Source of the DNA: Patescibacteria group bacterium
GTDB taxonomy: Bacteria; Patescibacteriota; Patescibacteriia; Buchananbacterales; GWA2-38-13
Direction: 5' to 3'
Assembly: GCA_028712155.1 (NCBI GenBank)
Contig: JAQTQO010000002.1
Location: 11,851-75,850, forward strand
Length of the DNA: 64,000 bases
A model generated the notes under the pieces. That model made no database searches. It had not been told where the DNA came from and saw nothing but the letters and a program-made list of their open reading frames with translations. The position numbers and the translations under genes are program-made. Shown piece by piece: positions 19,047 through 51,807 of this stretch (positions are counted from its first letter, which is position 1; each line of letters starts with the position of its first letter).

Positions 19047-19064
19047 ACAAATTATTCAAAAAAA

Positions 19065-30100: not shown

Positions 30101-30134
30101 TGACCTTGAATTTATTGATGACGATCGCAACCGT

Positions 30135-33031: not shown

Positions 33032-33348
33032 AAGCGAACTTGCCTAGATGCAACGGCATGCCCGTTCCATATTTCTGGCACTGGGCAAGGATCACCTCCA
33101 TATCCGACATACTGCAAAGACCCGACCATCCGGTTCACGGATCCTGAACAAATTTTTGCATCCCCGGATACGATACCAACAATTCCGCACATAAAGCGCT
33201 CCATTGACGATACAAGTAGATTGTGGTAATTTTAGCATAAATATCGCCAAAATCAAACGTTCGAACAACCAAATTTAACTCATGTATTTGCCGAGCGGTA
33301 AAATTTCATCCACTGCCGGATTCACCCTCATGAAACTTCGAAAAAAGT

Positions 33349-34098: not shown

Positions 34099-34105
34099 AA
34101 AGCAT

Positions 34106-34963: not shown

Positions 34964-35877
34964 GGGGATATTTTTTTCGCTGGTATTTGAGAAGCGTAAA
35001 ATTCCTCTCGCGATACCGGTTCAGTAATCTGCGGCCAGTCAAAACTACCCATCGAGTGATAAAACGATTACTGAAACCAAATACAATCTCAGCGCAAGGG
35101 CACCGATTTCACTTTAATCCATCCGATAAGTCCGTCGCCCAGGAGCTCGTGCTCCATCGAACATTTGAGCCGCTCACGACGAAAGTTTTTGAAGGCGTGA
35201 TCAAACCGGGAATGACGGTCGTGGATCTTGGGGCCAACATCGGCTACTTCACGTTACTGGCTGCACGCCTGGTCGGCCATGAAGGGAAGGTCTTCGCCTT
35301 TGAGCCGGAACCGAAAAATTTTTCGCTTCTGCAGAAAAATATTTCTGATAATCACTACCGCAATATTGTCGCGGTACAAAGTGCGGTGACCGACAAAATT
35401 GCCACAGTAAAATTATTTTTAAGCCGTACGAATAAAGGCGGTCACAGTTTACTGCCGCCGCAAGATTCGGAAGGCGCGGTACTGGTACCGTCAATGTCCA
35501 TCAATTCCTACTTCGCGAATTCCCCCTCCCACATCGATCTGATCAAAATGGACATCGAGGGCGCCGAGCCGTTAGCGCTGAACGGTATGGAAGAAGTCCT
35601 CAAAAAGAACCCAAACATCATCCTGATCACGGAGTTCAATCCAACCGTGATACGCAAGGGTGGCTGCCGGCCGGAATTGTTTCTCCAAATGCTGCAACGC
35701 CACTTCCCCACGATCATTGAAATTGATGAAGAGAATAGCCAATTCCACACCATCGGCGACGCTCGAACACTCCAACCGATCTTTAACGACGCCAACTACT
35801 ACCATAACCTCATCTGCCTGCGCAACACCGTCGACTTTGGCTGGCTGATGGCCTCGGTATCTCATGCCCGCACCTAG
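34948..35877 (+). CDS. FkbM family methyltransferase
   Basis: ...VVDLGANIGYFTLLAARLVGHEGKVFAFEPEPKNFSLLQKNI... is the FkbM signature. Confidence 0.75.
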   Translation: MDYLMRGYFFRWYLRSVKFLSRYRFSNLRPVKTTHRVIKRLLKPNTISAQGHRFHFNPSDKSVAQELVLHRTFEPLTTKVFEGVIKPGMTVVDLGANIGYFTLLAARLVGHEGKVFAFEPEPKNFSLLQKNISDNHYRNIVAVQSAVTDKIATVKLFLSRTNKGGHSLLPPQDSEGAVLVPSMSINSYFANSPSHIDLIKMDIEGAEPLALNGMEEVLKKNPNIILITEFNPTVIRKGGCRPELFLQMLQRHFPTIIEIDEENSQFHTIGDARTLQPIFNDANYYHNLICLRNTVDFGWLMASVSHART

Positions 35878-36844
35878 CACCCATCCCCTGGTTTCCGTTA
35901 TCATACCGACACGAAACCGTGCTGAAATGCTTGCATCATGTGTCGGAAACATTTTTAAGCAAACATACCCCAACTATGAACTTATCATTGTTGATGATGG
36001 CAGTACCGACAATTCCAAAGAGGTGATCAACCGTATCCGCGTCAGCCAACCGACGGGAAAAATTGACTATCGGCGGCAACCACACAGCGGTCCGTCGGCG
36101 GCGCGCAATACCGGAATCGCTTGCGCCCGCGGTGAATACATCGCCTTCTGCGATGATGACGATGCCTGGCATCCCCAAAAACTCTCTGACCAAATTGCGT
36201 TTCTACTGGCGCACCAAGAGATAAAAATTTGTTTCACCAATGGTTATTACGCGAGCGGAAAAAAAACCCTGCGGCATCTCATTTTCCCGCATCCGCCGCG
36301 ATTAGACCTCAAAGATTTCCTGCTCCAAAACCCCGTTCCCCTTTCTAGTGTTGTCATGCACCGCGCGTGTTTCCGGGAAGTCGGCGGATTTGATGAAACC
36401 CTGCGCGTCTGTGAGGATTACGACTTGTGGTTACGGATGCGGACGCGTTATTCATTTTCTATGATTGACGTCCCGCTGTTCACCTATCAATGCCATACCG
36501 AGAACGCAACGAATGATTTCGAGCGATTAGCCCGAACTAGACTCCGGCTTATCCAGCGCACGTACGCTGCGTGGGTGGCGGAAAATCCCGGTATATTCAG
36601 CACCGCCGAAAAACGGCAGATTGAAAGCACCATCGCGTTGCGAGAAGGGAAGTGCTGCTTCTTTTTTGACAAACAACGGCGGCCGGCCATCAAACAATGC
36701 ATCCGGGCATTAAGAATCTCTCCCGGGAACCGACGAGCATATTTGTATTTTGTCTTATACCTCATGGGGAACGGATTTTTTTCCGCCATCTACATACCGG
36801 CGTACGAGAAACTGTTTCACCGACCATACCTACGGAGCGCCTAA
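35864..36844 (+). CDS. Glycosyltransferase family 2
   Basis: VSVIIPTRNRAEMLASCVGNIFKQTYPNYELIIVDDGSTDNS and a DDDD motif. Confidence 0.75.
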   Translation: MPAPSTHPLVSVIIPTRNRAEMLASCVGNIFKQTYPNYELIIVDDGSTDNSKEVINRIRVSQPTGKIDYRRQPHSGPSAARNTGIACARGEYIAFCDDDDAWHPQKLSDQIAFLLAHQEIKICFTNGYYASGKKTLRHLIFPHPPRLDLKDFLLQNPVPLSSVVMHRACFREVGGFDETLRVCEDYDLWLRMRTRYSFSMIDVPLFTYQCHTENATNDFERLARTRLRLIQRTYAAWVAENPGIFSTAEKRQIESTIALREGKCCFFFDKQRRPAIKQCIRALRISPGNRRAYLYFVLYLMGNGFFSAIYIPAYEKLFHRPYLRSA

Positions 36845-36868
36845 ATTTTACGTGCATCTACCCACGGT

Positions 36869-37732
36869 ATGCAATCTCATCCTTCTCCCCTCGTCAGCGT
36901 CATTCTGCCTACCTACAACCGTGCGGACTTCGTGGGACGCGCGATAACGAGTATCGTTGGCCAGACCTACCGTAACCTCGAACTCATTATCGTCAACGAC
37001 GGCGGGACCGACCACACGGACGAAATTATCGCTCAGTACCGCGACGCGAGAATCCATTATGTCAAAAAATCAAACGGAGGCCTGGCCTCGGCCCGAAACT
37101 TCGGCCTCCAGCACGCCCGGGGCGAATATATTGTATTCTGTGATGACGATGACTGGTTTTTGCCGGAAAAACTGATGCGCCAGGTTGAGTTTATGATTTC
37201 GCGCGATCTTTTGATTTCTTACACCAACGTTTGGGTTCAATCCGAAGACGGACGGCGAACGCTAGCTTTTCGCAAACCGCCGAAATACCCGGCCGCTGCT
37301 GCCCTCACGCGCAATCTCGCTCCTGTGATGGCATTCATGGTGCAACGGAAATGTTTCGCAGTTATCGGCGGATTTGATGAAAGTTTGCCCGCCTGCGAAG
37401 ATTACGATTTCTGGTTACGCGCACTGCGCCGTTACGACTGCGTTCCCCTCAACATCCCCCTGGCCGTTTACTGGCACCATCTCGACAATATGGTGAGTGA
37501 TAAGCAGCTCATGTCTCGATACATGAATATCGTGGCCCAAAAAAATTTGGACGCCTTGATCCTGGCGCGGCCGAAAGAAATTTCGCCGTCAATTGAACGT
37601 CGTGCGATGAGACACTACCGGCTGCGCGACGCCAAACGGGAATTCCGCGACCATCGCTACGGCCGTGCACTCTTTGCCATGTTTTCCGCCGTTTCGCAGC
37701 GAGCCCGTCCCAGACAACCACCGACGCGATAA
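36869..37732 (+). CDS. Glycosyltransferase family 2
   Basis: VSVILPTYNRADFVGRAITSIVGQTYRNLELIIVNDGGTDHT and CDDDDW. Confidence 0.75.
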   Translation: MQSHPSPLVSVILPTYNRADFVGRAITSIVGQTYRNLELIIVNDGGTDHTDEIIAQYRDARIHYVKKSNGGLASARNFGLQHARGEYIVFCDDDDWFLPEKLMRQVEFMISRDLLISYTNVWVQSEDGRRTLAFRKPPKYPAAAALTRNLAPVMAFMVQRKCFAVIGGFDESLPACEDYDFWLRALRRYDCVPLNIPLAVYWHHLDNMVSDKQLMSRYMNIVAQKNLDALILARPKEISPSIERRAMRHYRLRDAKREFRDHRYGRALFAMFSAVSQRARPRQPPTR

Positions 37733-37747
37733 TAATACAAGCAAACC

Positions 37748-38623
37748 ATGGTTTCCGTAATTATTGTCACATACAATTCGGGCTTGCACATCCGGCGCTG
37801 CCTGAATGCATTGCATGAGTCGGCAGCCCTATTGGGCGAGATCATCGTCGTTGACAACGCCTCGACCGACGATAGCGCCACCCTTGTCCGGCAGCATTTC
37901 CCGCAGGTACACCTCATCGTGAACGTCGAAAACCGCGGATTTGCCGCAGCGGCAAACCTTGGATTTCGCGCCAGCCAGGGCTCGACGATATTTTTGCTCA
38001 ACCCGGACACGGTCGCCAATGCAGCAGCGGTACGGCACATGGCGGACCTGCTCATCCACGATACAAAAATTGCCGCCGTCGGCTGCCAACTCCGCAATCT
38101 CGACGATACAATCCAGCCTTCAGCTGGCCGCTTTCCGACTATCGCAAATCTCACGGTCAACCGCACGCCGATCCTCAAGTATCTGCTGCCGTCGTATTGT
38201 GATTTTCGCCGTTCATACTACCGCCGACCGCAGACGCCGGATTGGCTTTCCGGCGCGTGCCTGATGGTGCAGCGACGCGCGTTTCAAAGCGTCGGCGGAT
38301 TCGACGAAAAATATTTCATGTACGGTGAGGACGTGGATCTCTGCTACCGCCTCCGCCGTACCGGCTGGCACATCGCGTACACGCCAACAGCTCACGTCAT
38401 GCATGCCGACGAAGGGAAAACTGCGGCAAAAAAAATCGACAAATTCATCAACCTCCGCCGCGGTTTGTTGCGATTTTACCGCCAGCACTACCCTCCATCC
38501 GCGCTCACGCGCTTCCGAGTGGTACTGCACACCGAGCTCTTTTTCAGACGGCTGACCTCAACCCAACCAGCGCACAGACAAGCCTATCGAGATCTCATCG
38601 CAGAACTCTCGTCCACCCCATGA
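37748..38623 (+). CDS. Glycosyltransferase family 2 (rhamnosyltransferase-like)
   Basis: MVSVIIVTYNSGLHIRRCLNAL...VVDNASTDDS...GEDVDLCYRL. Confidence 0.7.
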   Translation: MVSVIIVTYNSGLHIRRCLNALHESAALLGEIIVVDNASTDDSATLVRQHFPQVHLIVNVENRGFAAAANLGFRASQGSTIFLLNPDTVANAAAVRHMADLLIHDTKIAAVGCQLRNLDDTIQPSAGRFPTIANLTVNRTPILKYLLPSYCDFRRSYYRRPQTPDWLSGACLMVQRRAFQSVGGFDEKYFMYGEDVDLCYRLRRTGWHIAYTPTAHVMHADEGKTAAKKIDKFINLRRGLLRFYRQHYPPSALTRFRVVLHTELFFRRLTSTQPAHRQAYRDLIAELSSTP

Positions 38624-39807
38624 ATATCCTCTTTATCACCGCGCCGGAGCCGCCCAATCTTTTCCACCGCATCCGGGCGCTGAATTTGATCAAGTATCTC
38701 GGCCGCGACCACGCGGTGCACCTCGTGTCGCTCACGGGCAATCAACATCCCAACAGTGACGGCCTACGGCCCTGGTGCAACGAAAGCCGCCTCGTGTACC
38801 AGCCGAAATGGCGGGCGCTCGTAAATTGCCTGCGTTCCATCGCCACGCTGACGCCGCTGGAAGTCGCGTACTGCACCAGCAAGGGTATGAACGATGCGGT
38901 AAAAACAATTCTGAAAAAATCACCGATCGACCTCATCTACATCAAGCGTTTGCGCAGCATTCAGTTTGTCCCTCCCGATACCACGGTTCCCTGCATTGTA
39001 GACACCACCGACGCGATGAGCTGGTACTACCGCCAAGCCAAGCGCGCCGTGCCGTGGTACCGCAAACCGCTTTTTTATCACGAAGCGCGCACCTACCGCG
39101 ATTACGAACGGCAACTGTTGAAGCGCTTTCCGTATTGGGTGGTGTGCTCGCCGCTTGATGCCGAGTATTTGAAAACGATGGCGCCGCCGGAGGCAAAATT
39201 TTGGGTCATCCCCAACGGCGTTGACACGGAGTATTTCCGGCCGATTACCCGGGTACCCGAAACCAACACGATACTCTTTTCCGGCCTGATGGATAAATTC
39301 GTCAACGTCCAGGCCGCCATCTTCTTGGTTAAAGAAATTCTACCGCACATTACCCGGGCGGTGCCGAATGTTGTCGTCTACCTCGTCGGCCCCAAACCGT
39401 CGGTATCCGTCCGCCGGCTGGCGTCACAAAACGTCAAAGTTATCGGTGTTGCACCCGATTTGCGGGAATACCTTGCCCGCGGTCAAGTGGTCGCTTGCCC
39501 GGTGCAAACCGGCGTGGGGACGCGGAACAAGATCCTGCAGGCCTGGGCCGTCGGGCGTCCGGTCGTGACCACCACCAAAGGATTGGAAGGGCTGGAAGGC
39601 GCCAACGAACGGGACGTCCTTTGCGCCGACACGGCAATGGATTTCGCCCGCCAGACCGTCCGATTGCTGCAGGATGCCGCACTCCGGCAGCGGTTAGCGG
39701 AAAACGGACTTGCGCTCGTGCGGGAACGGTATGCAATGGAAATTATCATTCAACGCGTCAACGAACTGCTCGAAACGGTGCGGCGAATGAAGCCGCGGGC
39801 GGATTGA
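38620..39807 (+). CDS. Glycosyltransferase family 4 (GT-B)
   Basis: N-terminal MNILFITAPEPPNL...; C-terminal ...QVVACPVQTGVGTRNKILQAWAVGRPVVTT is a GT4-like motif. Confidence 0.65.
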   Translation: MNILFITAPEPPNLFHRIRALNLIKYLGRDHAVHLVSLTGNQHPNSDGLRPWCNESRLVYQPKWRALVNCLRSIATLTPLEVAYCTSKGMNDAVKTILKKSPIDLIYIKRLRSIQFVPPDTTVPCIVDTTDAMSWYYRQAKRAVPWYRKPLFYHEARTYRDYERQLLKRFPYWVVCSPLDAEYLKTMAPPEAKFWVIPNGVDTEYFRPITRVPETNTILFSGLMDKFVNVQAAIFLVKEILPHITRAVPNVVVYLVGPKPSVSVRRLASQNVKVIGVAPDLREYLARGQVVACPVQTGVGTRNKILQAWAVGRPVVTTTKGLEGLEGANERDVLCADTAMDFARQTVRLLQDAALRQRLAENGLALVRERYAMEIIIQRVNELLETVRRMKPRAD

Positions 39808-39881
39808 ACCCCGCCGCATGCGGGGCAGCCGGCAGTTGCCGGCCATTGCCCAAAGCGTTACAATAGCCTGGTGCAGCTGTT

Positions 39882-41225
39882 ATGAAAATTCTCCTGTTCG
39901 TCAGCGACATGGTCGCAACGGTAGCGGCCTTTTTCGTAGCGTACGCGATCCGCAATGTCGGCCCGCTGCGAAATACTTTCGACACCATCCACCAGCCGTT
40001 TGGAGTGTACCTGGCCGCCCTGCCGGTCGCCGTCGCCCTACTGCTGCTGATCTTGCGTTTGCGCGGCCTCTACCACCCCCGGAGTCGCATGTACACCGGC
40101 CAGGAAGTGCTGATGGTGATCCAATCCGTCACCCTCTGGGCGCTGCTGATCGCCGCCGGATCGTACTTCGTGAAGTACGACTACTCGCGGGTCATCGTGA
40201 CGTTATTTTGGTTGACGACGATATTCGCCGTAAGTTTCGGCCGGTTCCTGGTCGGACGATTCGCCCTGCACTTAGCCGAGGACAGCGCCCTTTGCACCAA
40301 CGTTATCATTGTCGGTACCGGACGACCCGCCAAAACTATCGCCCGACAGCTGCAGCAATATTTCCGGCATGGCTACCGGCTGATTGGTTTTGTCGGCGGC
40401 AACGGTGGCACGGAACCGACGCTGGGACCGCTGGCTGATCTGCCGCAGCTTTTAAAAACCCACCGGATCTCGCAGGTGTACTGCGTCGAACCGTCGCTGG
40501 CGTACCGGCAGGTCCTTGACCTCATCAACGGCTGTCCCAAATCCGATGTGGAATTTCTCATCACCGCGAATATCTTTCCTCACCTCGGACACACCACGCT
40601 GCCGTACGAACTGGGGACTATCCCGTCCCTCGACCTGAAAAAAGCCCGGCCGACGACGATCTACCGCATGGCCAAACGGGCGATGGACCTTACCGCCGGC
40701 GCCGCCGGGCTGATCGTCAGCTCTCCGTTGTGGCTGGCTATCGCCTGGGCGATAAAATCAGACTCCCCCGGCCCGGTCATCATCCGCCAAACCCGCGTCG
40801 GAAAAGACGGGCACACATTTACGCTCTACAAATTCCGCACTATGGTGGCGGAGACCAACACGTACGCGCCCGCGCCGCAATCCAATAACGACCAGCGGAT
40901 TACCCGGATCGGCCGCATCTTGCGTCGCTTCAGCCTCGACGAGCTGCCGCAATTCTTGAACGTCGTCCGCGGCGAGATGAGCCTGGTCGGACCGCGCCCC
41001 GAAATGCCATTCATCGTACAGCATTATGAGGAATGGCAAAAAAGACGTTTGGCCGTAAAACCGGGACTGACCGGGCTGTGGCAAATCCTCGGCCGCAAGG
41101 ATTTGCCCTTGCATGATAATCTGGAGTACGATTTCTACTACGTCAATAACCAGTCGCTGCTGCTGGATTTGGAAATCTTGGTGCGCACCGTCCCGCAGAT
41201 CATTTTTGGAAAAGGAGCGTACTAA
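39882..41225 (+). CDS. Polyprenyl-phosphate glycosyl-1-phosphate transferase (WbaP/bacterial sugar transferase family) #2
   Basis: 447 aa, paralogous to the 30135-31478 product (same architecture; ...LDELPQFLNVVRGEMSLVGPRPE...KPGLTGLWQI). Confidence 0.8.
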   Translation: MKILLFVSDMVATVAAFFVAYAIRNVGPLRNTFDTIHQPFGVYLAALPVAVALLLLILRLRGLYHPRSRMYTGQEVLMVIQSVTLWALLIAAGSYFVKYDYSRVIVTLFWLTTIFAVSFGRFLVGRFALHLAEDSALCTNVIIVGTGRPAKTIARQLQQYFRHGYRLIGFVGGNGGTEPTLGPLADLPQLLKTHRISQVYCVEPSLAYRQVLDLINGCPKSDVEFLITANIFPHLGHTTLPYELGTIPSLDLKKARPTTIYRMAKRAMDLTAGAAGLIVSSPLWLAIAWAIKSDSPGPVIIRQTRVGKDGHTFTLYKFRTMVAETNTYAPAPQSNNDQRITRIGRILRRFSLDELPQFLNVVRGEMSLVGPRPEMPFIVQHYEEWQKRRLAVKPGLTGLWQILGRKDLPLHDNLEYDFYYVNNQSLLLDLEILVRTVPQIIFGKGAY

Positions 41226-41310: not shown

Positions 41311-43194
41311 ATGCTTTCCCAGCACTACTCACGATACATTTTTTGGGGGCTTTTCGCTCTGGTGCCGATAACGACGATACTCGGCTGGTCAACCCGGCAA
41401 ATCTGGGGAACCCTGCTGGTTTCCGGCATCGTCTTCACGCTGCTTTTTTTGGACGCCCTGGGCGGCTGGCACGAACCACGCCAACGCCTGCCGCTCCCCC
41501 TGCTCATGTTTGCCGGGTTGCTGCTCACCGCAACCCTGGTTTCCACGTACGCATATGCTTCACTCATCGTCCTGCTCCAGTTCGGGGCAGGCTGCGCCGT
41601 CTTCTCCCTGGCCCAACGCCACGGTCAACCGGCTGCACGACAGCAATGGATCAGCGCCGCGCTCATCGCCGGCGGTGCCGTTTCCGCCGCGTACGCCGTC
41701 GCGCAGACTTTTCAGCTCAAAAACTTAGAAACCGGGGTCGGCGCCACGTTCATTTGGAAAAACACACTGGCCGGCTTTTTGACGCTCGTTGCGCCGCTCG
41801 CGCTCACGGCGTACCTGGGGACGGCGCAGCGTTGGTTAAAAGTACTGCTTGGCATTGCCCTGGCAATGTTTGGCACCGCGCTCTATTTCACCAATTCGCA
41901 GGCGGCATGGCTTGCCACTGCCATCGGGGGCGTGATAGTCATTTGGGGAAATGCCGTCCACGGGCAACGGTCGACTCCTGCGGTTCTCAAGTCGCTGATC
42001 GTTCCCGCGGCGTTGACCCTGACGGCAATCGTTGCCATTTTTCAGGCCAATGCCCGCTTGTACCCCGCGACGAGCGCCACCGCTGCCACGGCAACGGTTA
42101 TCACCACGATCCCCGCCTCTTCAATCCAATCCCGCCTGTCCTACTGGGCGACGAGCTGGGAAATCGTCAAGGATTTTCCGCTGCTGGGCGTCGGCCCGGG
42201 CAACTTTGCGACGTGGTACGCCCACAAATTCACCCAGCCGTGGCTCTATGTCATCAGCCCGCACAATTACCTGGTGTACCTGGCGGTGACCGCCGGAATT
42301 CCCGCGACGATAGTTTTTTTGTGGTTTGTGCTGCAGGCCGCCGTGCAGACGCGGCGGTGGCTTAGGCACGCGCGAACCGAGAAATTCCCCGCACAACGCT
42401 TTGCGCTGGTGCTCGCTTGGGCGGCGGCGGGTACGTGCCTGTTGCTGCACAGCCTGCTCGATTTAAGCCTGGAAGTTCCGGCGATCAGCCTGCTATGGTG
42501 GCTCGTGCTCGGTCTGCTGTACGCCAATCTCGAGGCAGATGCGCCAAGGCAGGCTGCGCGCGCCGGCGGAAACATCGGGCGGCTGGTGCTCGCTTCCGGG
42601 TTCGTGGGGATGGTCATGGCCGCCCTGTTCGCCGACAACTACTACCAACGGGCATTTTCCCTGCAGGGGGGAATCGGCCAGGCCGAGGAACGATTACGGT
42701 TGCTGGAGCAATCGCGACGGCTGATGCCGTGGTCGGCCGACACCATCGAGGCGATTGCCGTTGCTCATTGGGATGCCGTGCTGGAACACGTCGGCGACCG
42801 GCAAACCCACATGGATGCAGCGCTGACTGCGGCACAGTCCGCGGTCGCCCTTGATCCGGCCGCCGCGCATCGTCACTGGGTGCTCGGCAGGATGTATTCC
42901 CAGGTGCACACGCCGCAGCGCCCGTACGGAGCGCTGGCCATCGCCCACCTGCAGCAAGCCATTGCGTACGACTTCCATGACCCGGGCTACTATAGAACAC
43001 TGGCGGAAGCCTACCTGCGTTTTGATCTGCGGCGACAGGCCCGCCAAACCATTGATGCCGGTCTCGCCCTTTACCCGCCGGAGGAAATCTCGCGCATCGT
43101 GGCCGGGGCGGTCGTCTACGAGCAGTTCGGGCTCAGGGAACGACTCGAGCAACTCAAGGAACTCCGGCAGTACACGGAACCAAAACCGAATTGA
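41311..43194 (+). CDS. O-antigen ligase/polymerase family (Wzy_C) membrane protein with C-terminal TPR repeats; candidate PglL/TfpO-like O-oligosaccharyltransferase
   Basis: ~10 TM segments. ...YVISPHNYLVYLAVTAGIPATIVFLWF... is Wzy_C-like. The C-terminal ~200 aa are TPR-like. The gene is convergent on and immediately adjacent to the major pilin gene. Confidence 0.6.
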   Translation: MLSQHYSRYIFWGLFALVPITTILGWSTRQIWGTLLVSGIVFTLLFLDALGGWHEPRQRLPLPLLMFAGLLLTATLVSTYAYASLIVLLQFGAGCAVFSLAQRHGQPAARQQWISAALIAGGAVSAAYAVAQTFQLKNLETGVGATFIWKNTLAGFLTLVAPLALTAYLGTAQRWLKVLLGIALAMFGTALYFTNSQAAWLATAIGGVIVIWGNAVHGQRSTPAVLKSLIVPAALTLTAIVAIFQANARLYPATSATAATATVITTIPASSIQSRLSYWATSWEIVKDFPLLGVGPGNFATWYAHKFTQPWLYVISPHNYLVYLAVTAGIPATIVFLWFVLQAAVQTRRWLRHARTEKFPAQRFALVLAWAAAGTCLLLHSLLDLSLEVPAISLLWWLVLGLLYANLEADAPRQAARAGGNIGRLVLASGFVGMVMAALFADNYYQRAFSLQGGIGQAEERLRLLEQSRRLMPWSADTIEAIAVAHWDAVLEHVGDRQTHMDAALTAAQSAVALDPAAAHRHWVLGRMYSQVHTPQRPYGALAIAHLQQAIAYDFHDPGYYRTLAEAYLRFDLRRQARQTIDAGLALYPPEEISRIVAGAVVYEQFGLRERLEQLKELRQYTEPKPN

Positions 43195-43224
43195 GCAGTA
43201 GGGGCACGGCATTCCCCACATTTA

Positions 43225-43260
43225 CATAAACAACCCCGCTCCGATTTTCATCGGAGCGGG
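43225..43260 (-). terminator. Rho-independent terminator of the major pilin gene
   Basis: Perfect 12-bp stem CCCCGCTCCGAT/ATCGGAGCGGGG at 43233-43244 and 43249-43260 with loop TTTC. A T-rich tract follows on the minus strand (plus AACAAA at 43225-43232). Confidence 0.7.
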
Positions 43261-43288
43261 GGTACCTTATGTAGACCTCAATTTCCTT

Positions 43289-43825
43289 CTAGTGCAGACA
43301 CGTGGCGTAGATCCCGGTTTCGGTCGTGCAGTTAACACCGGCGATCAACGGTCCAGTCGCGCCGTCCGGATCGTTTTCCAGACGGAAATGGATGTTGTAA
43401 TTATTACAGTTGGCGGCACAGGTGCTGCCAGCAGTCATCGTGAAGTACGCGTAGTTGCACTTCGTAGTTGCTGACCCGCCCTGCGCACAGGCAACTCCTG
43501 CAGCGACATTATCCGGATCCCGTGGGGCTGAAGCGAGGTACAGCGGTGAAGCGCAACTCCCCTGAGTCGTCTTCCAGCCACTGGCCGAATCAAGACAGAA
43601 CAGCTGCGAACCAATTTCCGCTGACGCCGCGAGCGGGTAGTACTGTTTGTCGTTGAAGTAGAGCTCCAGTGCGGTCTGGACTTGCTTCATGTCCGAGGTG
43701 CGCTTGGAATCCCGCGCCTTCGACCGCGCCGAACTCAGCGCGACGATCGCGAGCGTCGACAGCAAGCCGATGATGGCAATGACCACCAACAGCTCGATGA
43801 GCGTAAACCCTTTTCGTGCTTTCAT
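43289..43825 (-). CDS. pilA: Type IV major pilin (PilA-like)
   Basis: ATG at 43825, preceded by the SD AAGGGGGTG. MKARKG|FTLIELLVVIAIIGLLSTLAIVAL is a classic type IVa prepilin leader and N-terminal helix. C-terminal Cys pair (C...TC). The tool ORF start at 43858 reads through the RBS. Confidence 0.85.
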   Translation of the reverse strand: MKARKGFTLIELLVVIAIIGLLSTLAIVALSSARSKARDSKRTSDMKQVQTALELYFNDKQYYPLAASAEIGSQLFCLDSASGWKTTQGSCASPLYLASAPRDPDNVAAGVACAQGGSATTKCNYAYFTMTAGSTCAANCNNYNIHFRLENDPDGATGPLIAGVNCTTETGIYATCLH

Positions 43826-44171: not shown

Positions 44172-45377
44172 TCACACCGCTTCCGTAAGTTTATAGAGCG
44201 GCAAGATCACGGCAGCAACCATTAATCCGACGGCCACGGCCATGGTGGCAATCACCATAGGCTCAATCAGGCTGACGAGATTGCGCACCACGTTGTCAAT
44301 CTCACGGGTGTAAAAATCCGTCATTTTCTCCAGCACATGATCAATCCGCCCGGTCTTTTCGCCGACGTTGAGCATCTGCGACACCATGAACGGCACCACC
44401 GGACTGTGCAAAAATACCGAGGCAATGGGATTGCCGTCTTCCACTTCGCGGATGGTGGCTAAAATCACCTTGCGGTAAACTTCGTTGCCCACCACGTCGG
44501 CGGTGATCGCCAGCGCCTGCGGCAAGTTCACGCCGCCGACAATCAGCGTGTGCAGGCTCCGGCTGAAACGCACCAGGGCAATGCGCTGGTACAGCTTGCC
44601 GAACACCGGCACCCGCAGCTTCACGGTATCCCACGCCAGCCTTCCGGCGGGCGTCCGAAGCGAATAGTACCCGCCGACGGCAAGCCCGACGAGCGTGAGC
44701 AGCAAGAGCAGCCACCAGTGCTGTAAAATATCACTCGCAGTAATCAGAATTTTGGTCGAAAGCGGCAGCTCCACGCCGCTTTCGATGAGAATGTCGGTAA
44801 TTTTCGGGATCACATATACCATCATCAGCACGCCCACCACGACCAGGCCGGAGAGGATGAAAATCGGATAAATCATCGCACCTTTGATGCGGGAAGTCAG
44901 GTCGTAATCTTTCTCGAGCTGATTAGCCAGGTACTCGAGCACCTCGTCAAGCTTGCCGGAAGTTTCACCCGAACGGATGATGTTGACGTAAAAGCTGTCA
45001 AAAACACGCCGGTGCCGCCCGAGCGCCACGGACAGCTTGGTACCGGCTTCAACGTCATCGGCGATTTCCGAAACGGCCACCTTGAGGTGTTTGTTCGGCG
45101 TCTGGGCGATGAGGATGCGCAGCGACTGCACGAGCGGAACATTGGCGGATACCAAAACCGCCAGCTGGCGCGAGAATACGACCGTGTCGCGCACTTTGAT
45201 ATGCTTGAGGAACGAGAGGGAAACCCCGAGGATGCCCCCGGATACCGGATGGAGGTACAGGATGGTCAGCCCGCGCTCGCGGAGACTTTCGACGGCCAGG
45301 TCTTCGCTCGCCGCCTGCACCAATCCGGAAATGGTCGTATTCTCGCTGGTTCGCGCTTTGTAGGAAAATTCAGGCAC
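44172..45377 (-). CDS. pilC: Type IV pilus assembly platform protein PilC (GspF family)
   Basis: 401 aa with two GspF repeats and 3 TM segments. ...MPEFSYKARTSENTTISGLVQAASEDLAVESLRERGLTIL.... Confidence 0.85.
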   Translation of the reverse strand: MPEFSYKARTSENTTISGLVQAASEDLAVESLRERGLTILYLHPVSGGILGVSLSFLKHIKVRDTVVFSRQLAVLVSANVPLVQSLRILIAQTPNKHLKVAVSEIADDVEAGTKLSVALGRHRRVFDSFYVNIIRSGETSGKLDEVLEYLANQLEKDYDLTSRIKGAMIYPIFILSGLVVVGVLMMVYVIPKITDILIESGVELPLSTKILITASDILQHWWLLLLLTLVGLAVGGYYSLRTPAGRLAWDTVKLRVPVFGKLYQRIALVRFSRSLHTLIVGGVNLPQALAITADVVGNEVYRKVILATIREVEDGNPIASVFLHSPVVPFMVSQMLNVGEKTGRIDHVLEKMTDFYTREIDNVVRNLVSLIEPMVIATMAVAVGLMVAAVILPLYKLTEAV

Positions 45378-45453
45378 AGAAAAAATTCAAAATTATGGAG
45401 TCCCGCCCAGGACGGGACGGAATAATTACCTCAATTTTGCATTTTGCATTTTC

Positions 45454-46533
45454 TTATCCGTATCCCCGGATCATCATCCGCAGATTCTCCGGATCAATCG
45501 CTTCCGCCAGCGCCGCCGCGCCGGAGATCGTACCGGCCTTCACCAGCGCCGACAACGACTGGTCGAGACTGACCATTCCTTCCTGCTGGGATGTCTGCAG
45601 CACTGACTGCAGCTGTGCCATGCGGCCGTCGCGGAACAACGACCGCGTCGCCGGCGTGGCCGTGAGCACCTCCAGCGCCGCCACCCGTCCGCCGGAGATC
45701 CGCGGGAGCAAGCGCTGGCAGACCACTGCTTCAAGGCATTCCGCCAGCTGCTCCTGGGCCAACCCCCGGTTCTCGCTCGGGTACACGGCGATCATCCGCT
45801 CGATCGCCTGCACGGCCGAAACGGCGTTCATGACCACGTAGACCAGCCGCCCGAACGCGGCCAGTTCGATGGCCGCACGCAGGGTGCCCGGCTCATCATT
45901 CTCGCCGACCAGGATCACCGTCACGTCCTCCTGGTTGCATTCCTCGAGCGCCTGCAGGAAACTCGGCACGTCCCGGCCGACTTCGCGCTGCACCACGATG
46001 CTTTTCGCGCTGGTGATCAAATACTCCACCGGCTGCTCAATCGTCAAAATATTCTCCGAGCGGGTTTCGTTCACCTGCTGCACGATCGCCGCCGCCGTCG
46101 TGCTGCGCCCGGAATTATAGGGACCGGACACGATGACCAAACCGCGGCGAATTTCCACCAAACGGGCAATGGCCTGAGGCAGGCCGAGCTGCTGTAGATT
46201 CGGCACGGTCGTGGGCACCAGCCGCAAGGTGAATGCCAATCCCCCCCGCTGGTAGTACGCCGTCACCCGCAGCCGGAGCTTGCCTTCGAACAGAAAGACG
46301 AAACGCACCAAGCGATGCCGCTCAAGCGCTTCCTGCTGCGCAGCGTCGAGCAGCTCGCCTTTGAGCTCTTCCAAAAAATCCTTGGTCAGCACCTCGGCGT
46401 CGGTCAGTTCGATCAAACCGGAATCCATGCGCAGCACCGGCAATCCGCCGGCGAGCAAGTGGATGTCCGAAGCCTGACGCTTGGACGCCATCCCGATAAT
46501 CTTCCCCAGCAAAAGGTGAATGGCCGTTTTCAT
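45454..46533 (-). CDS. PilT-like retraction ATPase homologue with degenerate catalytic motifs (likely pseudo-ATPase)
   Basis: PilT-like N-terminus (ASDIHLLAGGLPVLRMDSG). The Walker A motif is GPYNSGRST, with K replaced by R. The Asp box is TIEQPVEY, against canonical TIEDPIE. The Walker B region is VILVGENDE. The His box is RLVYVVMNAV, with both His lost. Start overlaps the upstream response-regulator gene. Confidence 0.7.
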   Translation of the reverse strand: MKTAIHLLLGKIIGMASKRQASDIHLLAGGLPVLRMDSGLIELTDAEVLTKDFLEELKGELLDAAQQEALERHRLVRFVFLFEGKLRLRVTAYYQRGGLAFTLRLVPTTVPNLQQLGLPQAIARLVEIRRGLVIVSGPYNSGRSTTAAAIVQQVNETRSENILTIEQPVEYLITSAKSIVVQREVGRDVPSFLQALEECNQEDVTVILVGENDEPGTLRAAIELAAFGRLVYVVMNAVSAVQAIERMIAVYPSENRGLAQEQLAECLEAVVCQRLLPRISGGRVAALEVLTATPATRSLFRDGRMAQLQSVLQTSQQEGMVSLDQSLSALVKAGTISGAAALAEAIDPENLRMMIRGYG

Positions 46534-46910
46534 ACCTTGATGACCGCCTTAATTTTTTTGACTACTTCCGACGGCATAAAATGCGCCTTGATCAGGTAGT
46601 CGGCCGCCCCAAGCTCCAATCCCCGCCGCACTTCGTCCCGCTGGCTCAAGTTGGTCAGTAAGATGACCGGGATGGCTTTACCCGCCGGGTCTTCGCGCAG
46701 TGTTTTGAGCACCTCAAAGCCGTCCATCTTGGGCAGAATGATATCCAGCAGCACCAGATCCGGGTGTTTCTCGCGCGCGAGTTTCAAACCTTTTTTGCCG
46801 TCGGCAGCCGTCACCACCTCAAACCCTTCAAGGTTGAGCTTGGTGGCATACAGTTCGGACAGAAACTCATCGTCTTCGACCAGGAGAATGACGGGTTTTG
46901 ACTTGGGCAT
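46530..46910 (-). CDS. Single-domain CheY-like response regulator (PilH/PilG-like)
   Basis: 126 aa. ...ILLVEDDEFLSELYATKL...DLVLLDIILPKMDGFEVLKTL... contains the receiver-domain residues (DD...D...K). It is embedded between pilB and the pilT-like gene. Confidence 0.8.
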   Translation of the reverse strand: MPKSKPVILLVEDDEFLSELYATKLNLEGFEVVTAADGKKGLKLAREKHPDLVLLDIILPKMDGFEVLKTLREDPAGKAIPVILLTNLSQRDEVRRGLELGAADYLIKAHFMPSEVVKKIKAVIKV

Positions 46911-46999
46911 AGGCTAAAGTTGGCGGGCAAGATAAGCGCAAAACGTAAAAATTGCAGCGTAAATTTCAAAACTTTGTAAATGTTTCTCGCTTAACGCTT

Positions 47000-48730
47000 T
47001 TACAGTTTCGTCACCCGATAGATCTCCTCCAACGTGGTTTTACCTTGCAGCACCTTCACCAGCCCGTCCTGCCGGAGGGTAATATACTCCTGCTTGCCAA
47101 GCTGGGTCTCAACGTCCTTGCCGCGGAATCCGGTCGTAATGAGCTCCTGCAGCTCCGGAGTGAACTCCACGACTTCCGCCACCGCGATCCGTCCGAGGTA
47201 ACCGGTGTTCCCGCACCGCGAGCATCCCTTACCCTTCCAGAACTGAAATTTCTCCCGCGACAGATCGGTCGGCCAGTGTTTGTTGGGGACCGCCGCAATT
47301 TCGGCCGCCAGGCCCTTTTCCATTACGGCCGGCATCTTCAAGGGTTCGCGGCAATGCTCGCAGATCCGCCGCGCCAGCCGCTGCGCCACGACCGCGTTGA
47401 CCGTCGAGGACAGCAGGAACGGTTCCACTCCCATATCCAGCAACCGCGGCACCGCGCCGATCGCATCATTGGTGTGCAGCGTCGAGAGTACCAGGTGGCC
47501 GGTGAGGCTGGCGTGCGTCACCAGCTCCGCCGATTCCTGGTCGCGGATCTCCCCCAACATGATAATGTTGGGATCCTGCCGCAGGATCGAGCGCAATCCC
47601 GAGGCGAACGAGTACCCCACGTCCGGATTGATCTGGGATTGGTTGATGCCTTCGACCGAGTACTCGACCGGATCCTCCAGGGTGATGATATTGACTCCCT
47701 CCTTGTTGAGCAGCGTCAGCACGGTGTAAAGCGTCGTGGTCTTGCCGGATCCCGTCGGGCCGGTCAGGAGCAGCAACCCGTGGGGCTTGGCAATACTGGC
47801 TACGATCGCCGCGATATGCGGCTCGGAAAATCCCAGGTCTTGCAGCGTCGGCACCTTGAAGCTGGCATCCAAAACGCGCATCACCACCTTTTCGCCTTCA
47901 AACAGCGGCAGGGTGGAGACGCGGAAATCCACGTCCCGCCCCTCGATCGTCAGGCGGATGCGGCCATCCTGAGGCTTGCGGGTTTCATCCAGCCGGAGAT
48001 TGGCGAGCACCTTGATCCGCGCGACGATCGCCGAATGGATGTAGCGCGGCAGATGCAGGCTGGTGCGCAGCATCCCGTCAATGCGGTAGCGGACCCGCGT
48101 TTCATGCGGCTCCGGCTCGATGTGGATATCGGAGGCGCGGCCGTCAATGGCGTGGCGAATGATCACCAGTACCATTTTGGAGACCGGCGCGGACCGGACG
48201 ACCTCCTGGAGGTCTTTGGGCATCACCCGCAGCTCTTCATCAACCTCTTTCTCCGTGACGCCGGCGAGCGCCTCCTCGGCTTCCTTATTGAGCTCGCCGT
48301 ACTGCCGGCTGACCTGCCGCAAGCCGCTCGCGGAGACAATATAGTAGCGGACCGTCAGGCTTCCCTCTTGCGCCAGGAAATCCACCGCTTCGATCGCCTT
48401 GAAATTCTGCGGGTCAACGAGAGCGACCTTGATTTCATTGCCGCGCCGCTCAAACGCAACCATCTGGTAATTCTCAGCGACCGTCGGGGGCAGCGTATTG
48501 AGTACGGCCGGCGGAATCGTCCGTCCGGCGAGATCAATGTAGGGCACGCCCAGCATTTCCCCCTTCACCTTGGTCAACGTCTCTTCGTCCACCCACCCTT
48601 CTTTCAGCATGGCGGATTCCACGCCGACAGGGTCCTCAGCGCCTTTGGCCCCCAGCTTGGTTGCCTGCTCGGCGGTGATCAATTTTCGCTCCACCAAGGC
48701 AGCGATGAGTTTTCCCGTTTCAACCGGCAT
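47000..48730 (-). CDS. pilB: Type IV pilus assembly ATPase PilB (GspE family)
   Basis: Intact Walker A GPTGSGKTTTLYT, Asp box TLEDPVEY, Walker B IIMLGEIRDQESA and His box GHLVLSTLHTNDA. Tetracysteine motif CEHC...CSRCGNTG. Confidence 0.9.
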   Translation of the reverse strand: MPVETGKLIAALVERKLITAEQATKLGAKGAEDPVGVESAMLKEGWVDEETLTKVKGEMLGVPYIDLAGRTIPPAVLNTLPPTVAENYQMVAFERRGNEIKVALVDPQNFKAIEAVDFLAQEGSLTVRYYIVSASGLRQVSRQYGELNKEAEEALAGVTEKEVDEELRVMPKDLQEVVRSAPVSKMVLVIIRHAIDGRASDIHIEPEPHETRVRYRIDGMLRTSLHLPRYIHSAIVARIKVLANLRLDETRKPQDGRIRLTIEGRDVDFRVSTLPLFEGEKVVMRVLDASFKVPTLQDLGFSEPHIAAIVASIAKPHGLLLLTGPTGSGKTTTLYTVLTLLNKEGVNIITLEDPVEYSVEGINQSQINPDVGYSFASGLRSILRQDPNIIMLGEIRDQESAELVTHASLTGHLVLSTLHTNDAIGAVPRLLDMGVEPFLLSSTVNAVVAQRLARRICEHCREPLKMPAVMEKGLAAEIAAVPNKHWPTDLSREKFQFWKGKGCSRCGNTGYLGRIAVAEVVEFTPELQELITTGFRGKDVETQLGKQEYITLRQDGLVKVLQGKTTLEEIYRVTKL

Positions 48731-48839
48731 AGTAAAAAAATTTCGAATTTTGAGTTTCGAATGAACCTGAAATGACCGGATGTTGCAGATCTTGCATCAT
48801 GGAATTTGTATGTTGCCGCGGCGAAATTATGAATGGTCG

Positions 48840-49178
48840 TTATTCGGCGGGTGTCGTGGTTGCGCCGGCAAACGCAGGCGGAGCAAAGGGATTCTCTTTT
48901 CCGGTCGCACCGGCCAGCACGGGCAGCGTGACGAACGTCCGCAGTCCCGTGTACTGCGGGCTCGTGAACAGCGGGTGATCCCCCCGAAACTGCGGCACCG
49001 AGGGGTAGCGCAGCTGATTTTGGCGGCTGAATTCCTCACTCCATTGCTTTGGGACTTGCTGCCGGTCGACTTGCAGAAAATTACCCAGCACCACCCACCC
49101 CATCCACCCGAGCGCGCCAAAGAGCACCAGAGCGAGCACAATGAGCTTCATTGGATTAATGGGTTTCGGCGCAAGCAT
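48840..49178 (-). CDS. Small membrane protein in pilus operon (PilP-like?)
   Basis: 112 aa with a single N-terminal TM (LIVLALVLFGALGWMGWVVL) and a Pro-rich tail. No family recognised. Confidence 0.35.
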   Translation of the reverse strand: MLAPKPINPMKLIVLALVLFGALGWMGWVVLGNFLQVDRQQVPKQWSEEFSRQNQLRYPSVPQFRGDHPLFTSPQYTGLRTFVTLPVLAGATGKENPFAPPAFAGATTTPAE

Positions 49179-49299
49179 AGGTGAGGAAATCGGTTACCGC
49201 GGCATACCCCGTTGGAGATACTGAGAAAATCCTCCAAATCGCGTATGCATAAACATTATTTTTGACTTCGGGCGTACGGGAATAAAGAAAACGGAATCT

Positions 49300-49920
49300 C
49301 TACCGGGGCATATAGTACGCCCGCAGCGTAATCTGGTACGGTCCCCCGTTGGCCGAGGCAAAATTCACGCTCTCCACATCCAGCAGCCGCATATTCGCCT
49401 CCAGGCTATCCAAAAACCCGTTGAGTTGGAAATAATCGCCGCCGCTCACAGAAGCGACGATCCCGACGCTCGCAATGGCGGAAATCTTTGGCACTGCCCC
49501 GACGACCTGCTCGGACGCAACGGTGGCGGGATTGTCCGTCTTATTTTCGGCGAACTGGACGTTGTGCAGGAGAAAACCGCTTTGCTTGGCAATCGCTTCC
49601 ATCTGCACGAACAGCCCGGGCAGATCGGGCTCGACGGGCAGGATCGCCGTAAATTTATCCATGGCCGAACGGTTAAATTGGCTGTACTTATCATTGAGCA
49701 GCTGCAGGTCGCGCAGGTGCCCGTCGAGGTAGTCGGCATCAGCCTTAATGGACTCAAGATTGTAATGCTCCTGGGTCAAAATCTGCTGGAATCCGGTCTG
49801 CAGGAACCAGAAGTATCCGACCGCGAGCACCGTAATAATGCTCCCGATGACCAGCTCCGGATAAAAGCGCGTGAACAAGCGCAGGAAGAAGAGGCGAATT
49901 TTTGAGCCGCTAATGATCAT
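49300..49920 (-). CDS. pilO: PilO-like pilus assembly protein
   Basis: 206 aa. N-terminal TM, then a coiled-coil and a periplasmic domain. Sits between pilN and pilB. Start overlaps the pilN stop. Confidence 0.5.
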   Translation of the reverse strand: MIISGSKIRLFFLRLFTRFYPELVIGSIITVLAVGYFWFLQTGFQQILTQEHYNLESIKADADYLDGHLRDLQLLNDKYSQFNRSAMDKFTAILPVEPDLPGLFVQMEAIAKQSGFLLHNVQFAENKTDNPATVASEQVVGAVPKISAIASVGIVASVSGGDYFQLNGFLDSLEANMRLLDVESVNFASANGGPYQITLRAYYMPR

Positions 49921-51767: not shown

Positions 51768-51807
51768 TCCCGCTCCACGGTACCTACTGCCGAAGCACGA
51801 CCTTCCT

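What the first reader, a model, noticed from the sequence alone, without database searches (positions are those of the whole stretch)
41311..43825. Wzy_C/O-antigen-ligase-like TPR protein adjacent to the major pilin gene: possible pilin O-glycosylation (PglL/TfpO-like)
Pilin O-oligosaccharyltransferases (Neisseria PglL, Pseudomonas TfpO/PilO) belong to the Wzy_C family and are often encoded next to pilA. Here a 627-aa Wzy_C protein with a C-terminal TPR domain ends 95 bp from the end of the convergent major pilin gene. It closes a large glycan locus that includes a Wzx flippase, the classic donor-supply route for en bloc O-glycosylation. This suggests the locus builds a glycan transferred to the type IV pilin, possibly fucosylated, methylated or sulfated.
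Basis: inference. Interest (0 to 1): 0.6.

Follow-up and report, generated by a model that had tools for sequence, protein, structure and literature searches.

The report
Likely pilin-glycosylating enzyme in a Patescibacterium
A membrane enzyme of the O-antigen-ligase family with an outward-facing protein-binding (TPR) domain sits at the end of a sugar-building gene island inserted inside the type IV pilus gene cluster of an uncultured Patescibacterium, so it most likely attaches sugar chains to a surface protein, probably the pilin, but this is not proven.

Summary
ORF 41311-43194 (+, 627 aa) is a Wzy_C protein with a real C-terminal TPR domain. It ends 94 bp from the stop of a convergent type IV pilin gene (43289-43825, -) and closes a 23.5-kb glycan island.

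New points:
- The organism is a Patescibacteria MAG.
- The island lies exactly between pilA and pilD; a related genome has that pilus cluster uninterrupted.
- Six of seven informative orthologues (40-57% identity) keep the convergent pilin neighbour. Only 2 of 59 distant Wzy_C loci have a prepilin motif within 2.5 kb.
- Arg275 and His318 are conserved.

This Wzy_C + TPR architecture is described for the O-oligosaccharyltransferases PglL and WsfB.

Limits: Pfam PglL_A does not hit. The TfpO/TfpM type is excluded by size, orientation and a pilin ending in His. A conserved active-site Arg is replaced by Gln. No acceptor site could be identified.

Verdict: a plausible protein O-oligosaccharyltransferase, with pilin the leading but unproven acceptor. 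It is a new member of a known kind, in a phylum where pilin glycosylation has only been predicted.

The parts
41311..43194 (+). Wzy_C-TPR protein (627 aa): candidate en bloc glycan transferase / O-oligosaccharyltransferase
41311..42660 (+). Membrane core, about 13 transmembrane helices (aa 1-450). The large outward loop aa 251-320 carries R275, the P290/G293/G295 motif and H318-N319
   Evidence: Secondary structure of the model; hydropathy and positive-inside analysis; conservation across 58 relatives: R275 57/58, H318 53/58, G293/G295/G329 58/58; alignment to CmWaaL R265 and H313
42682..43176 (+). C-terminal TPR domain (aa 458-622), predicted extracytoplasmic after TM13 (aa 422-440)
   Evidence: Loop 341-360 is rich in K/R (inside), so the extra helix TM13 places the TPR on the side of the catalytic loop
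43234..43261 (-). Hairpin terminator after the pilin gene (12-bp stem, 9 G-C pairs, then TTGTTTATGT)
43289..43825 (-). Type IV pilin (178 aa; leader MKARKG, six Cys, C-terminal disulfide-loop motif NC-x-[ST]-E-x-G...C-x-H): candidate acceptor
39882..41225 (+). Initiating phosphoglycosyl transferase (Bac_transf + CoA_binding_3; WbaP/WsaP type), directly upstream of the Wzy_C-TPR gene
   Evidence: 52% identical to the paralogue at 30135-31478
31490..39807 (.). Wzx-type part of the island: Wzx flippase (31490-33031, -), DUF268 methyltransferase, GT11, FkbM methyltransferase, three GT2, GT4
19713..31478 (.). ABC-transporter-type part of the island: PAPS synthase, Wzm, Wzt-methyltransferase fusion, sulfotransferase-methyltransferase fusion, methyltransferase, WsaF-like GT (-), GT2-GT4 fusion, first Bac_transf
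15593..19889 (-). Left flank of the island: prepilin peptidase PilD (19065-19889), then four ORFs that are likely minor pilins. Two show a prepilin-type N-terminus (18288-19046; 16630-17574, which passes Pfam N_methyl). The other two (17561-18313, 15593-16633) are assigned only by position and a hydrophobic N-terminus
44172..52998 (-). Right flank: pilus machinery PilC, PilT-like ATPase, response regulator, PilB, PilO-like and PilN-like (both weak hits), PilM

Best explanation
The gene encodes a WaaL/PglL-superfamily (Wzy_C) membrane glycosyltransferase whose extra thirteenth helix places a TPR protein-binding domain on the outer face of the membrane, beside the catalytic loop. The adjoining island builds undecaprenyl-pyrophosphate-linked glycans by two routes. 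One is exported by Wzx. The other is exported by a Wzm/Wzt ABC transporter and may be capped by methyl or sulfate groups. The enzyme then transfers the exported glycan en bloc to Ser/Thr (or Tyr) of an extracytoplasmic protein held by the TPR domain. The type IV pilin encoded next door is the most likely acceptor, possibly together with the tandem or minor pilins. Shown: the family, fold, topology prediction, conserved Arg/His, island content and conserved gene neighbourhood. Inferred: the donor, the catalytic activity, a protein acceptor, and the pilin as that acceptor.
For: (2) Architecture. 627 aa, 13 helices and an outward C-terminal TPR. Wzy_C + C-terminal TPR is described for the O-OTases PglL and WsfB (PMC2943079). 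PglL and PglS are large (520-620 aa) with a C-terminal periplasmic domain thought to recognise internal sequons, whereas WaaL-sized TfpO/TfpM lack it (PMC9829042, PMC12800693). The TPR part resembles peptide-binding HOP/STI1 modules and the OGT TPR.
(3) The motif H380-x3-D384...E388-x-P390 at the outer end of TM11 is invariant in the clade. It resembles the PglL-specific H400/E404/P406 (PMC3643930) and is absent from the aligned WaaL segment.
(4) The organism is a Patescibacteria MAG. By established knowledge this group lacks LPS, so the usual WaaL acceptor is missing.
(5) The island contains an ABC-transporter glycan route. That route needs a ligase, not a polymerase. This is the only Wzy_C gene found in the 64-kb window. 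No Wzz/PCP or LCP gene was seen.
(6) Context. Six distinct orthologues at 40-57% identity (window, L001, L004, L005, L088, L093) have one or two convergent pilin genes followed by pilC immediately after the gene, although the upstream glycan genes differ. Only 2 of 59 distant Wzy_C loci have a prepilin motif within 2.5 kb.
(7) The island lies exactly between pilA and pilD. Related locus L096 has pilC-pilA-pilA-pilD-minor pilins contiguous.
(8) A homologous pilin in L095 follows, co-directionally, a PMT-family GT-C protein and a multi-pass membrane protein with a TPR domain. That is a different membrane glycosyltransferase plus TPR set beside the same pilin family.
Against: - No experiment and no glycopeptide data exist.
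- The genes are convergent and separated by a terminator, whereas known pilin-specific OTase genes usually lie beside the pilin gene in the same orientation (PMC3643930).
- Orthologue P0005 (L007) is followed by a PaaX-like gene, not a pilin.
- Pfam PglL_A gives no hit even at E<=10. Wzy_C_2 is only sub-threshold, in 3 of 6.
- By sequence and by fold the core is closest to a WaaL, which does not discriminate between ligase and OTase.
- The conserved 'T-x-S-R-G' arginine (CmWaaL R191) is Gln in every clade member.
- Conserved pilin Ser/Thr positions (157, 168, 175) are also conserved in pilins from the island-free locus L096, so no acceptor site is indicated.
- Adjacency among relatives could be inherited gene order rather than functional coupling.
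Confidence: 0.42

Rival explanations
1. It is a protein O-oligosaccharyltransferase, but its acceptor is another surface protein or many proteins: an S-layer protein, the 2951-aa beta-helix protein, or a general glycosylation system like PglL or WsfB. On this view pilin adjacency reflects where the island was inserted and then inherited.
For: The island resembles S-layer glycan (slg) clusters: WsaP-type initiator, Wzm/Wzt, a WsaF homologue, methyltransferases and a Wzy_C enzyme (PMC2943079). General OTases such as Neisseria PglL are not linked to their targets (PMC3643930). L007 lacks the pilin neighbour. The genes are convergent with a terminator between them. A giant beta-helix surface-type protein lies at 55036-63891.
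Against: No S-layer gene is recognisable in the window. The neighbour is a pilin in 6 of 7 informative orthologues despite turnover of the upstream genes. The island is flanked on both sides by pilus genes.
Confidence: 0.22
2. It is a ligase that attaches the glycan to a non-protein acceptor, such as a membrane glycolipid anchor or a cell-wall polymer. That would be a WaaL-like role adapted to a cell without an outer membrane.
For: The best structural and sequence match is WaaL. The PglL_A motif is absent. The unusual Q197 active-site change might reflect a different substrate.
Against: The TPR domain is a protein-peptide binding module and is predicted to face outward. Characterised WaaL proteins are about 400 aa without such a domain (7tpg chain is 413 aa). 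No lipid-anchor biosynthesis genes were seen in the island.
Confidence: 0.16
3. It is the Wzy-type polymerase of the Wzx-dependent half of the island and joins repeat units into a capsule-like or exopolysaccharide polymer.
For: The Wzx-dependent cassette in the window has no other polymerase candidate. Some polymerases share the Wzy_C Pfam family and fold (my own knowledge of the family, not tested here).
Against: The His-Asn motif and Arg of ligases and OTases are conserved. An outward TPR domain is not expected for a polymerase. No Wzz/PCP co-polymerase or export genes are in the window. The co-resident ABC-transporter route needs a ligase. Orthologous locus L001 carries an additional 10-helix, 503-aa membrane protein with no Pfam match that could be the polymerase there.
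Confidence: 0.12

Closest known systems
PglL / PglS class O-oligosaccharyltransferases (Neisseria PglL, Acinetobacter PglS)
   Same: Wzy_C core with a WaaL-like fold. About 13 helices. Large size with a C-terminal extracytoplasmic domain (PMC9829042, PMC12800693), described as a TPR motif in PglL (PMC2943079). Catalytic His and Arg conserved. An H-x3-acidic motif after TM11. Many family members are encoded beside pilin genes (21 of 31 in PMC3643930). The donor is supplied by a Wzx-type route.
   Different: Pfam PglL_A gives no hit and Wzy_C_2 is only sub-threshold. The gene is convergent to the pilin rather than co-directional. The organism is a Patescibacterium, not a proteobacterium. The R191-equivalent arginine is Gln. 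Activity is untested.
WsfB / WsaB S-layer protein O-oligosaccharyltransferases of Paenibacillus alvei and Geobacillus stearothermophilus (slg clusters)
   Same: The host has no outer membrane. Wzy_C enzyme with a C-terminal TPR (WsfB), or a separate TPR protein WsaA next to WsaB. The cluster has a WsaP-type initiator, the Wzm/Wzt ABC transporter, a WsaF-type glycosyltransferase and methyltransferase capping (PMC2943079).
   Different: The neighbouring structural gene here is a type IV pilin, not an S-layer protein. A second, Wzx-dependent cassette and sulfation genes are present.
TfpO (PilO) / TfpM pilin-specific O-oligosaccharyltransferases
   Same: Wzy_C enzyme encoded next to its pilin, with a conserved catalytic His.
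   Different: TfpO and TfpM are 420-470 aa without a C-terminal domain. Their genes lie next to the pilin gene: pilO in the same orientation (PMC3643930), and the cognate pilin gene immediately upstream of tfpM (PMC9829042). They modify a C-terminal Ser/Thr (PMC9829042). Here the protein is 627 aa with a TPR, the genes are convergent, and 12 of the 14 aligned pilins end in His or His-Gln and none in Ser/Thr.
WaaL O-antigen ligase (Cupriavidus metallidurans, PDB 7TPG/7TPJ)
   Different: WaaL is about 400 aa, has no TPR and uses lipid A-core as acceptor. This organism's group lacks LPS (established knowledge, not tested here). The R191 equivalent is Gln.

Membership tests
Wzy_C / WaaL-like GT-C superfamily (PF04932) | Significant match to the Wzy_C profile | tested here: met
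   E 8e-15, 55.3 bits against a cutoff of 31.7. All six orthologues match.
Wzy_C / WaaL-like GT-C superfamily (PF04932) | WaaL-like multi-helix fold with a large outward loop before TM10 | tested here: met
Wzy_C / WaaL-like GT-C superfamily (PF04932) | Conserved catalytic His and loop Arg (CmWaaL H313, R265) | tested here: met
   H318 and R275 align with them and are present in 53/58 and 57/58 relatives.
Wzy_C / WaaL-like GT-C superfamily (PF04932) | Second conserved Arg in the T-x-S-R-G motif (CmWaaL R191) | tested here: not met
   Gln197 in all six clade members and in L093. It is R in 48 and K in 3 of 52 other relatives. K150 is invariant only in the clade.
PglL / PglS O-oligosaccharyltransferases | PglL_A domain (PF15864) | tested here: not met
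   No hit in any of six orthologues even at E<=10.
PglL / PglS O-oligosaccharyltransferases | Wzy_C_2 domain (PF11846) | tested here: inconclusive
   Sub-threshold in 3 of 6 (best E 0.005, 17.3 bits against a cutoff of 28.5; P0004 aa 526-590, inside the TPR). Not reported for the window protein itself.
PglL / PglS O-oligosaccharyltransferases | 520-620 aa with a C-terminal periplasmic domain | tested here: met
   627 aa. The TPR aa 458-622 follows TM13 and is predicted to face outward. Size classes from PMC9829042.
PglL / PglS O-oligosaccharyltransferases | Transfers an Und-PP-linked glycan to Ser/Thr of a protein | not testable with these tools
   Needs biochemistry or glycoproteomics.
TfpO / TfpM pilin-specific O-oligosaccharyltransferases | 420-470 aa, no large C-terminal domain | tested here: not met
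   627 aa with a TPR domain.
TfpO / TfpM pilin-specific O-oligosaccharyltransferases | Gene directly downstream of the pilin gene in the same orientation | tested here: not met
   Convergent in all six loci where a pilin is adjacent.
TfpO / TfpM pilin-specific O-oligosaccharyltransferases | Cognate pilin ends in Ser or Thr | tested here: not met
   12 of the 14 aligned pilins end in His or His-Gln, including all those next to a glycosylation gene; the two L096 pilins end in Pro and Asn. None ends in Ser or Thr.
S-layer glycosylation (slg) cluster O-OTase (WsaB/WsfB) | Wzy_C enzyme with a fused or adjacent TPR, in a cluster with a WsaP-type initiator, Wzm/Wzt and methyl-capping enzymes | tested here: met
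   features as listed in PMC2943079.
S-layer glycosylation (slg) cluster O-OTase (WsaB/WsaB-like) | S-layer protein as the linked acceptor | tested here: inconclusive
   No S-layer-type gene was recognised in the 64-kb window. The flanking structural genes are pilins. The rest of the genome was not available.
WaaL O-antigen ligase (LPS) | Lipid A-core acceptor in an organism with an outer membrane | not testable with these tools
   The source names the organism as a Patescibacteria group bacterium. That this group lacks LPS rests on established knowledge, not on a test here.
Wzy O-antigen / capsule polymerase | Works with a Wzz/PCP co-polymerase encoded in the same locus | tested here: not met
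   No Wzz/PCP family hit among the large ORFs (at least 180 aa) of the island scanned.

The most novel reading that the evidence does not exclude
Type IV pili of Patescibacteria, which are essential for their episymbiotic life, are decorated en bloc with unusual methylated, sulfated or fucosylated glycans by a dedicated Wzy_C-TPR transferase whose glycan island has been inserted between pilA and pilD. Relatives carry alternative membrane glycosyltransferase + TPR modules (PMT-type in L095) at the same pilin family. Pilin glycosylation would then be a modular, exchangeable determinant of host recognition or phage evasion in this phylum. The clade's Arg-to-Gln active-site change may reflect an unusual donor.
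Probability: 0.3. Interest if true: 0.65.

Novelty: new member of a known kind. Interest (0 to 1): 0.45.

Why it matters
In the one cultivated Saccharibacterium studied genetically, type IV pili drive host binding, competition and twitching motility (PMC11623550). That study only predicted pilin O-glycosylation by software and called for confirmation. No O-oligosaccharyltransferase has been described in this phylum: literature searches found none. A recent review lists functional O-OTases only from Gram-negative genera (PMC12645811). This locus gives a concrete, testable enzyme-acceptor-glycan set: one transferase gene, one or two pilins and a defined glycan island. If confirmed, it would extend Wzy_C-type pilin glycosylation to ultrasmall bacteria that lack an outer membrane. 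It could also add an enzyme with a different active-site make-up to the glycoengineering toolbox.

Tried and rejected
- The genome-contig scan with the seven-member alignment returned only distant relatives (22-31% identity), mostly Verrucomicrobia. I used them only as a background for pilin adjacency.
- The metagenome-contig scan found a single extra fragment, L088.
- The single sequence and the six-member profile against PDB sequences reached only TPR proteins.
- PDB entry 9rmk ('Oligosaccharyltransferase', 610 aa) matched the broad profile A2 at E 2e-25. It did not match the TM-only profiles A5 and A6, so that hit is probably driven by the TPR. Its identity could not be established and no paper was found. 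I drew no conclusion from it.
- The afdb50 fold library was unavailable.
- I looked for a pilin Ser/Thr position specific to pilins linked to glycosylation genes. Positions 157, 168 and 175 are conserved, but equally so in island-free L096, so the test does not discriminate.
- Next-nearest relatives P0007, P0009 and P0032 (at most 29% identity) have no pilin neighbours. The link is therefore specific to this clade and is not a property of Wzy_C-TPR proteins in general.
- The IctB 'bicarbonate transporter' label (best NCBIfam hit, 68 bits against a cutoff of 366) was rejected as far below threshold.
- The TfpO-type model was rejected (see the membership test).
Full report

SURROUNDINGS. An identical protein in the database is named by NCBI as coming from a 'MAG: Patescibacteria group bacterium'. 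The minus strand to the right of the finding carries a pilus operon: PilM, weak PilN-like and PilO-like genes, PilB, a response regulator, a PilT-like ATPase, PilC and the pilin. To the left of the glycan island, also on the minus strand, lie the prepilin peptidase PilD (19065-19889) and four likely minor pilin genes (15593-19046). Two of these show a prepilin-type N-terminus; the other two are assigned by position only.

The 23.5-kb island on the plus strand (19713-43194) therefore sits exactly between pilA and pilD. In related locus L096, which has a pilin homologue at 48% identity, the order pilC-pilA-pilA-pilD-minor pilins is contiguous with no island. Parts of the island have lower G+C (0.51-0.53 against about 0.58).

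The island holds two glycan routes:
- An ABC-transporter route (19713-31478): PAPS synthase, Wzm, a Wzt-methyltransferase fusion, a sulfotransferase-methyltransferase fusion, a WsaF-like GT, a GT2-GT4 fusion and a Bac_transf initiator.
- A Wzx route (31490-41225): Wzx, methyltransferases, GT11, three GT2, GT4 and a second Bac_transf that is 52% identical to the first.

No second Wzy_C gene, Wzz/PCP gene or LCP gene was found in the window.

THE PROTEIN. AlphaFold with 58 homologues gave pLDDT 91 and pTM 0.90. The model has thirteen long helices, a large loop at aa 251-320 and a helical repeat domain at aa 458-622. Hydropathy and charge place the K/R-rich loop 341-360 inside the cell. The extra helix TM13 (422-440) then puts the TPR domain outside, on the same face as the large loop.

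Two clade-specific features stand out:
- The 'T-x-S-R-G' arginine is R in 48 and K in 3 of 52 other relatives. It is Gln in all clade members, while Lys150 is invariant only in the clade. I cannot explain this.
- H380-x3-D384-x3-E388-x-P390 at the outer end of TM11 is invariant in the clade. It resembles the PglL-specific H400/E404/P406 (PMC3643930; E404 matters for activity according to PMC12800693). WaaL has no such residues in the aligned segment.

Nevertheless Pfam PglL_A gives no hit at E<=10 in any of six orthologues, and Wzy_C_2 appears only below threshold in three of them.

RELATIVES AND CONTEXT. The word-indexed search found only six close homologues, at 45-50% identity, and then a drop to generic Wzy_C proteins. 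The exhaustive profile search shows a graded family. Fifty-seven cluster representatives reach E<=1e-30, and most of the top 150 are 600-750 aa and match through both the membrane and TPR parts. The architecture is therefore common and largely uncharacterised.

Neighbourhoods of the close orthologues:
- P0002 (L001/L002), P0003 (L004), P0006 (L005), the fragment L088 and a 40%-identical orthologue found through its pilin (L093) all show Wzy_C-TPR, then one or two convergent pilins, then pilC.
- The upstream gene differs between loci: a methyltransferase in L005, Bac_transf elsewhere.
- P0005 (L007) is followed instead by a PaaX-like gene.
- P0004 (L006) is uninformative because the contig is too short.

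The tally is six of seven informative orthologues with a pilin neighbour. Relatives at 29% identity or less (L003, L089, L092) have no pilin nearby. Among 59 distant Wzy_C loci only 2 carry a prepilin motif within 2.5 kb.

The pilin family itself is much larger than the enzyme clade, with thousands of hits. I looked up the contexts of four close pilin homologues:
- L093 has the same Wzy_C-TPR layout.
- L096 has an uninterrupted pilus cluster.
- L094 ends at the contig edge.
- L095 has, co-directionally just upstream of the pilin, a PMT/PMT_2 protein (604 aa) and a 593-aa multi-pass membrane protein with a TPR domain. That is a different membrane glycosyltransferase plus TPR set beside the same kind of pilin.

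THE PILIN. Fourteen aligned pilins share six Cys and a C-terminal disulfide loop, NC-x-[ST]-E-x-G...C-x-H. Twelve end in His or His-Gln, including all those next to a glycosylation gene. The two L096 pilins end in Pro and Asn. None ends in Ser or Thr. Ser/Thr at positions 157, 168 and 175 is conserved, but it is conserved also in the island-free L096 pilins, so no acceptor site can be inferred.

INTERPRETATION. The fold, the conserved Arg/His and the position at the end of a lipid-linked glycan island make an en bloc glycan transferase the best reading. Four points favour a ligase or OTase over a polymerase: the ABC-transporter route needs a ligase, not a polymerase; no co-polymerase gene is present; the TPR faces outward; and L001 carries a separate 10-helix protein of unknown family that could be the polymerase there.

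Three points favour a protein acceptor. The TPR domain is of the peptide-binding type. Wzy_C + TPR is the architecture reported for the O-OTases PglL and WsfB, and TPR-less WsaB has a separate TPR protein encoded next to it (PMC2943079). The larger PglL/PglS enzymes with a C-terminal periplasmic domain act on internal sequons (PMC9829042, PMC12800693).

The pilin as acceptor rests on gene context alone. That context is strong for this clade but convergent, not universal, and open to the explanation of inherited gene order.

I put about 0.42 on 'O-OTase acting on pilin'. The remainder is split as follows: about 0.22 on an O-OTase with other targets, 0.16 on a ligase with a non-protein acceptor and 0.12 on a polymerase, with the small rest unassigned.

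COMPARISON AND NOVELTY. As a family member this is securely a Wzy_C/WaaL-superfamily protein. It is not a TfpO/TfpM-type enzyme, since three defining features fail. It does not meet the PglL_A criterion for PglL/PglS. It works most like PglL or WsfB. Pilin glycosylation in Patescibacteria has so far only been predicted by software (PMC11623550), and I found no paper describing an O-OTase from this phylum. I therefore rate it a new member of a known kind, of moderate interest, with a clear experimental path.

Noticed in passing
window 19713-26376: PAPS synthase (ATP sulfurylase + APS kinase), Wzm, a Wzt ATPase fused to a methyltransferase, a sulfotransferase-methyltransferase fusion and a further methyltransferase. 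This suggests an ABC-transporter-exported glycan whose chain end is capped by methyl and perhaps sulfate. Sulfate capping would be unusual in bacteria.
   Followed up: partly
window 19065-43825, compared with L096 6001-10801: The whole glycan island lies between pilA and pilD. A related genome has pilC-pilA-pilA-pilD-minor pilins contiguous, so the island looks like an insertion into the pilus cluster. G+C dips to 0.51-0.53 at 24-28 kb and 32-38 kb.
   Followed up: partly
L095 2164-6525: A PMT/PMT_2 protein (604 aa) and a 593-aa multi-pass membrane protein with a C-terminal TPR (N-terminal 'FAWDDPEF' loop) lie co-directionally just upstream of a pilin 52% identical to the window pilin. This is a second, unrelated membrane glycosyltransferase + TPR set beside this pilin family.
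   Followed up: partly
window 41311-43194, residues Q197 and K150: The arginine of the conserved T-x-S-R-G motif (CmWaaL R191 equivalent) is Gln in every clade member, while Lys150 is invariant only in the clade. This may be a relocation of an active-site positive charge. Unexplained.
   Followed up: partly
window 55036-63891 (-): A 2951-aa protein with NosD/right-handed beta-helix repeats lies directly upstream of the pilus operon on the same strand. It may be a giant surface adhesin and is an alternative glycosylation target.
   Followed up: no
window 190-2355 (+): A DndB-like domain fused to a Swt1-like HEPN domain (721 aa), in a stretch of only 37% G+C at the window start. It looks like a horizontally acquired defence-type gene.
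   Followed up: no
L001 2152-3663 (+): A 503-aa protein with about 10 hydrophobic helices and no Pfam match inside the orthologous glycan cluster. It is absent from the window and not homologous to the window Wzx. It may be a divergent Wzy polymerase or another GT-C enzyme.
   Followed up: partly
L001 15395-15610, L002 15395-15769, L094 4122-4475: A small ORF of the '23S rRNA intervening-sequence protein' family sits between pilT and pilC in several related loci but not in the window.
   Followed up: no
PDB entry 9rmk (no window coordinates): An unpublished 610-aa 'Oligosaccharyltransferase' chain matches the broad Wzy_C-TPR profile at E 2e-25, but it does not match the TM-only profiles. It may be a solved membrane OTase with a TPR domain and is worth checking when its paper appears.
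   Followed up: partly
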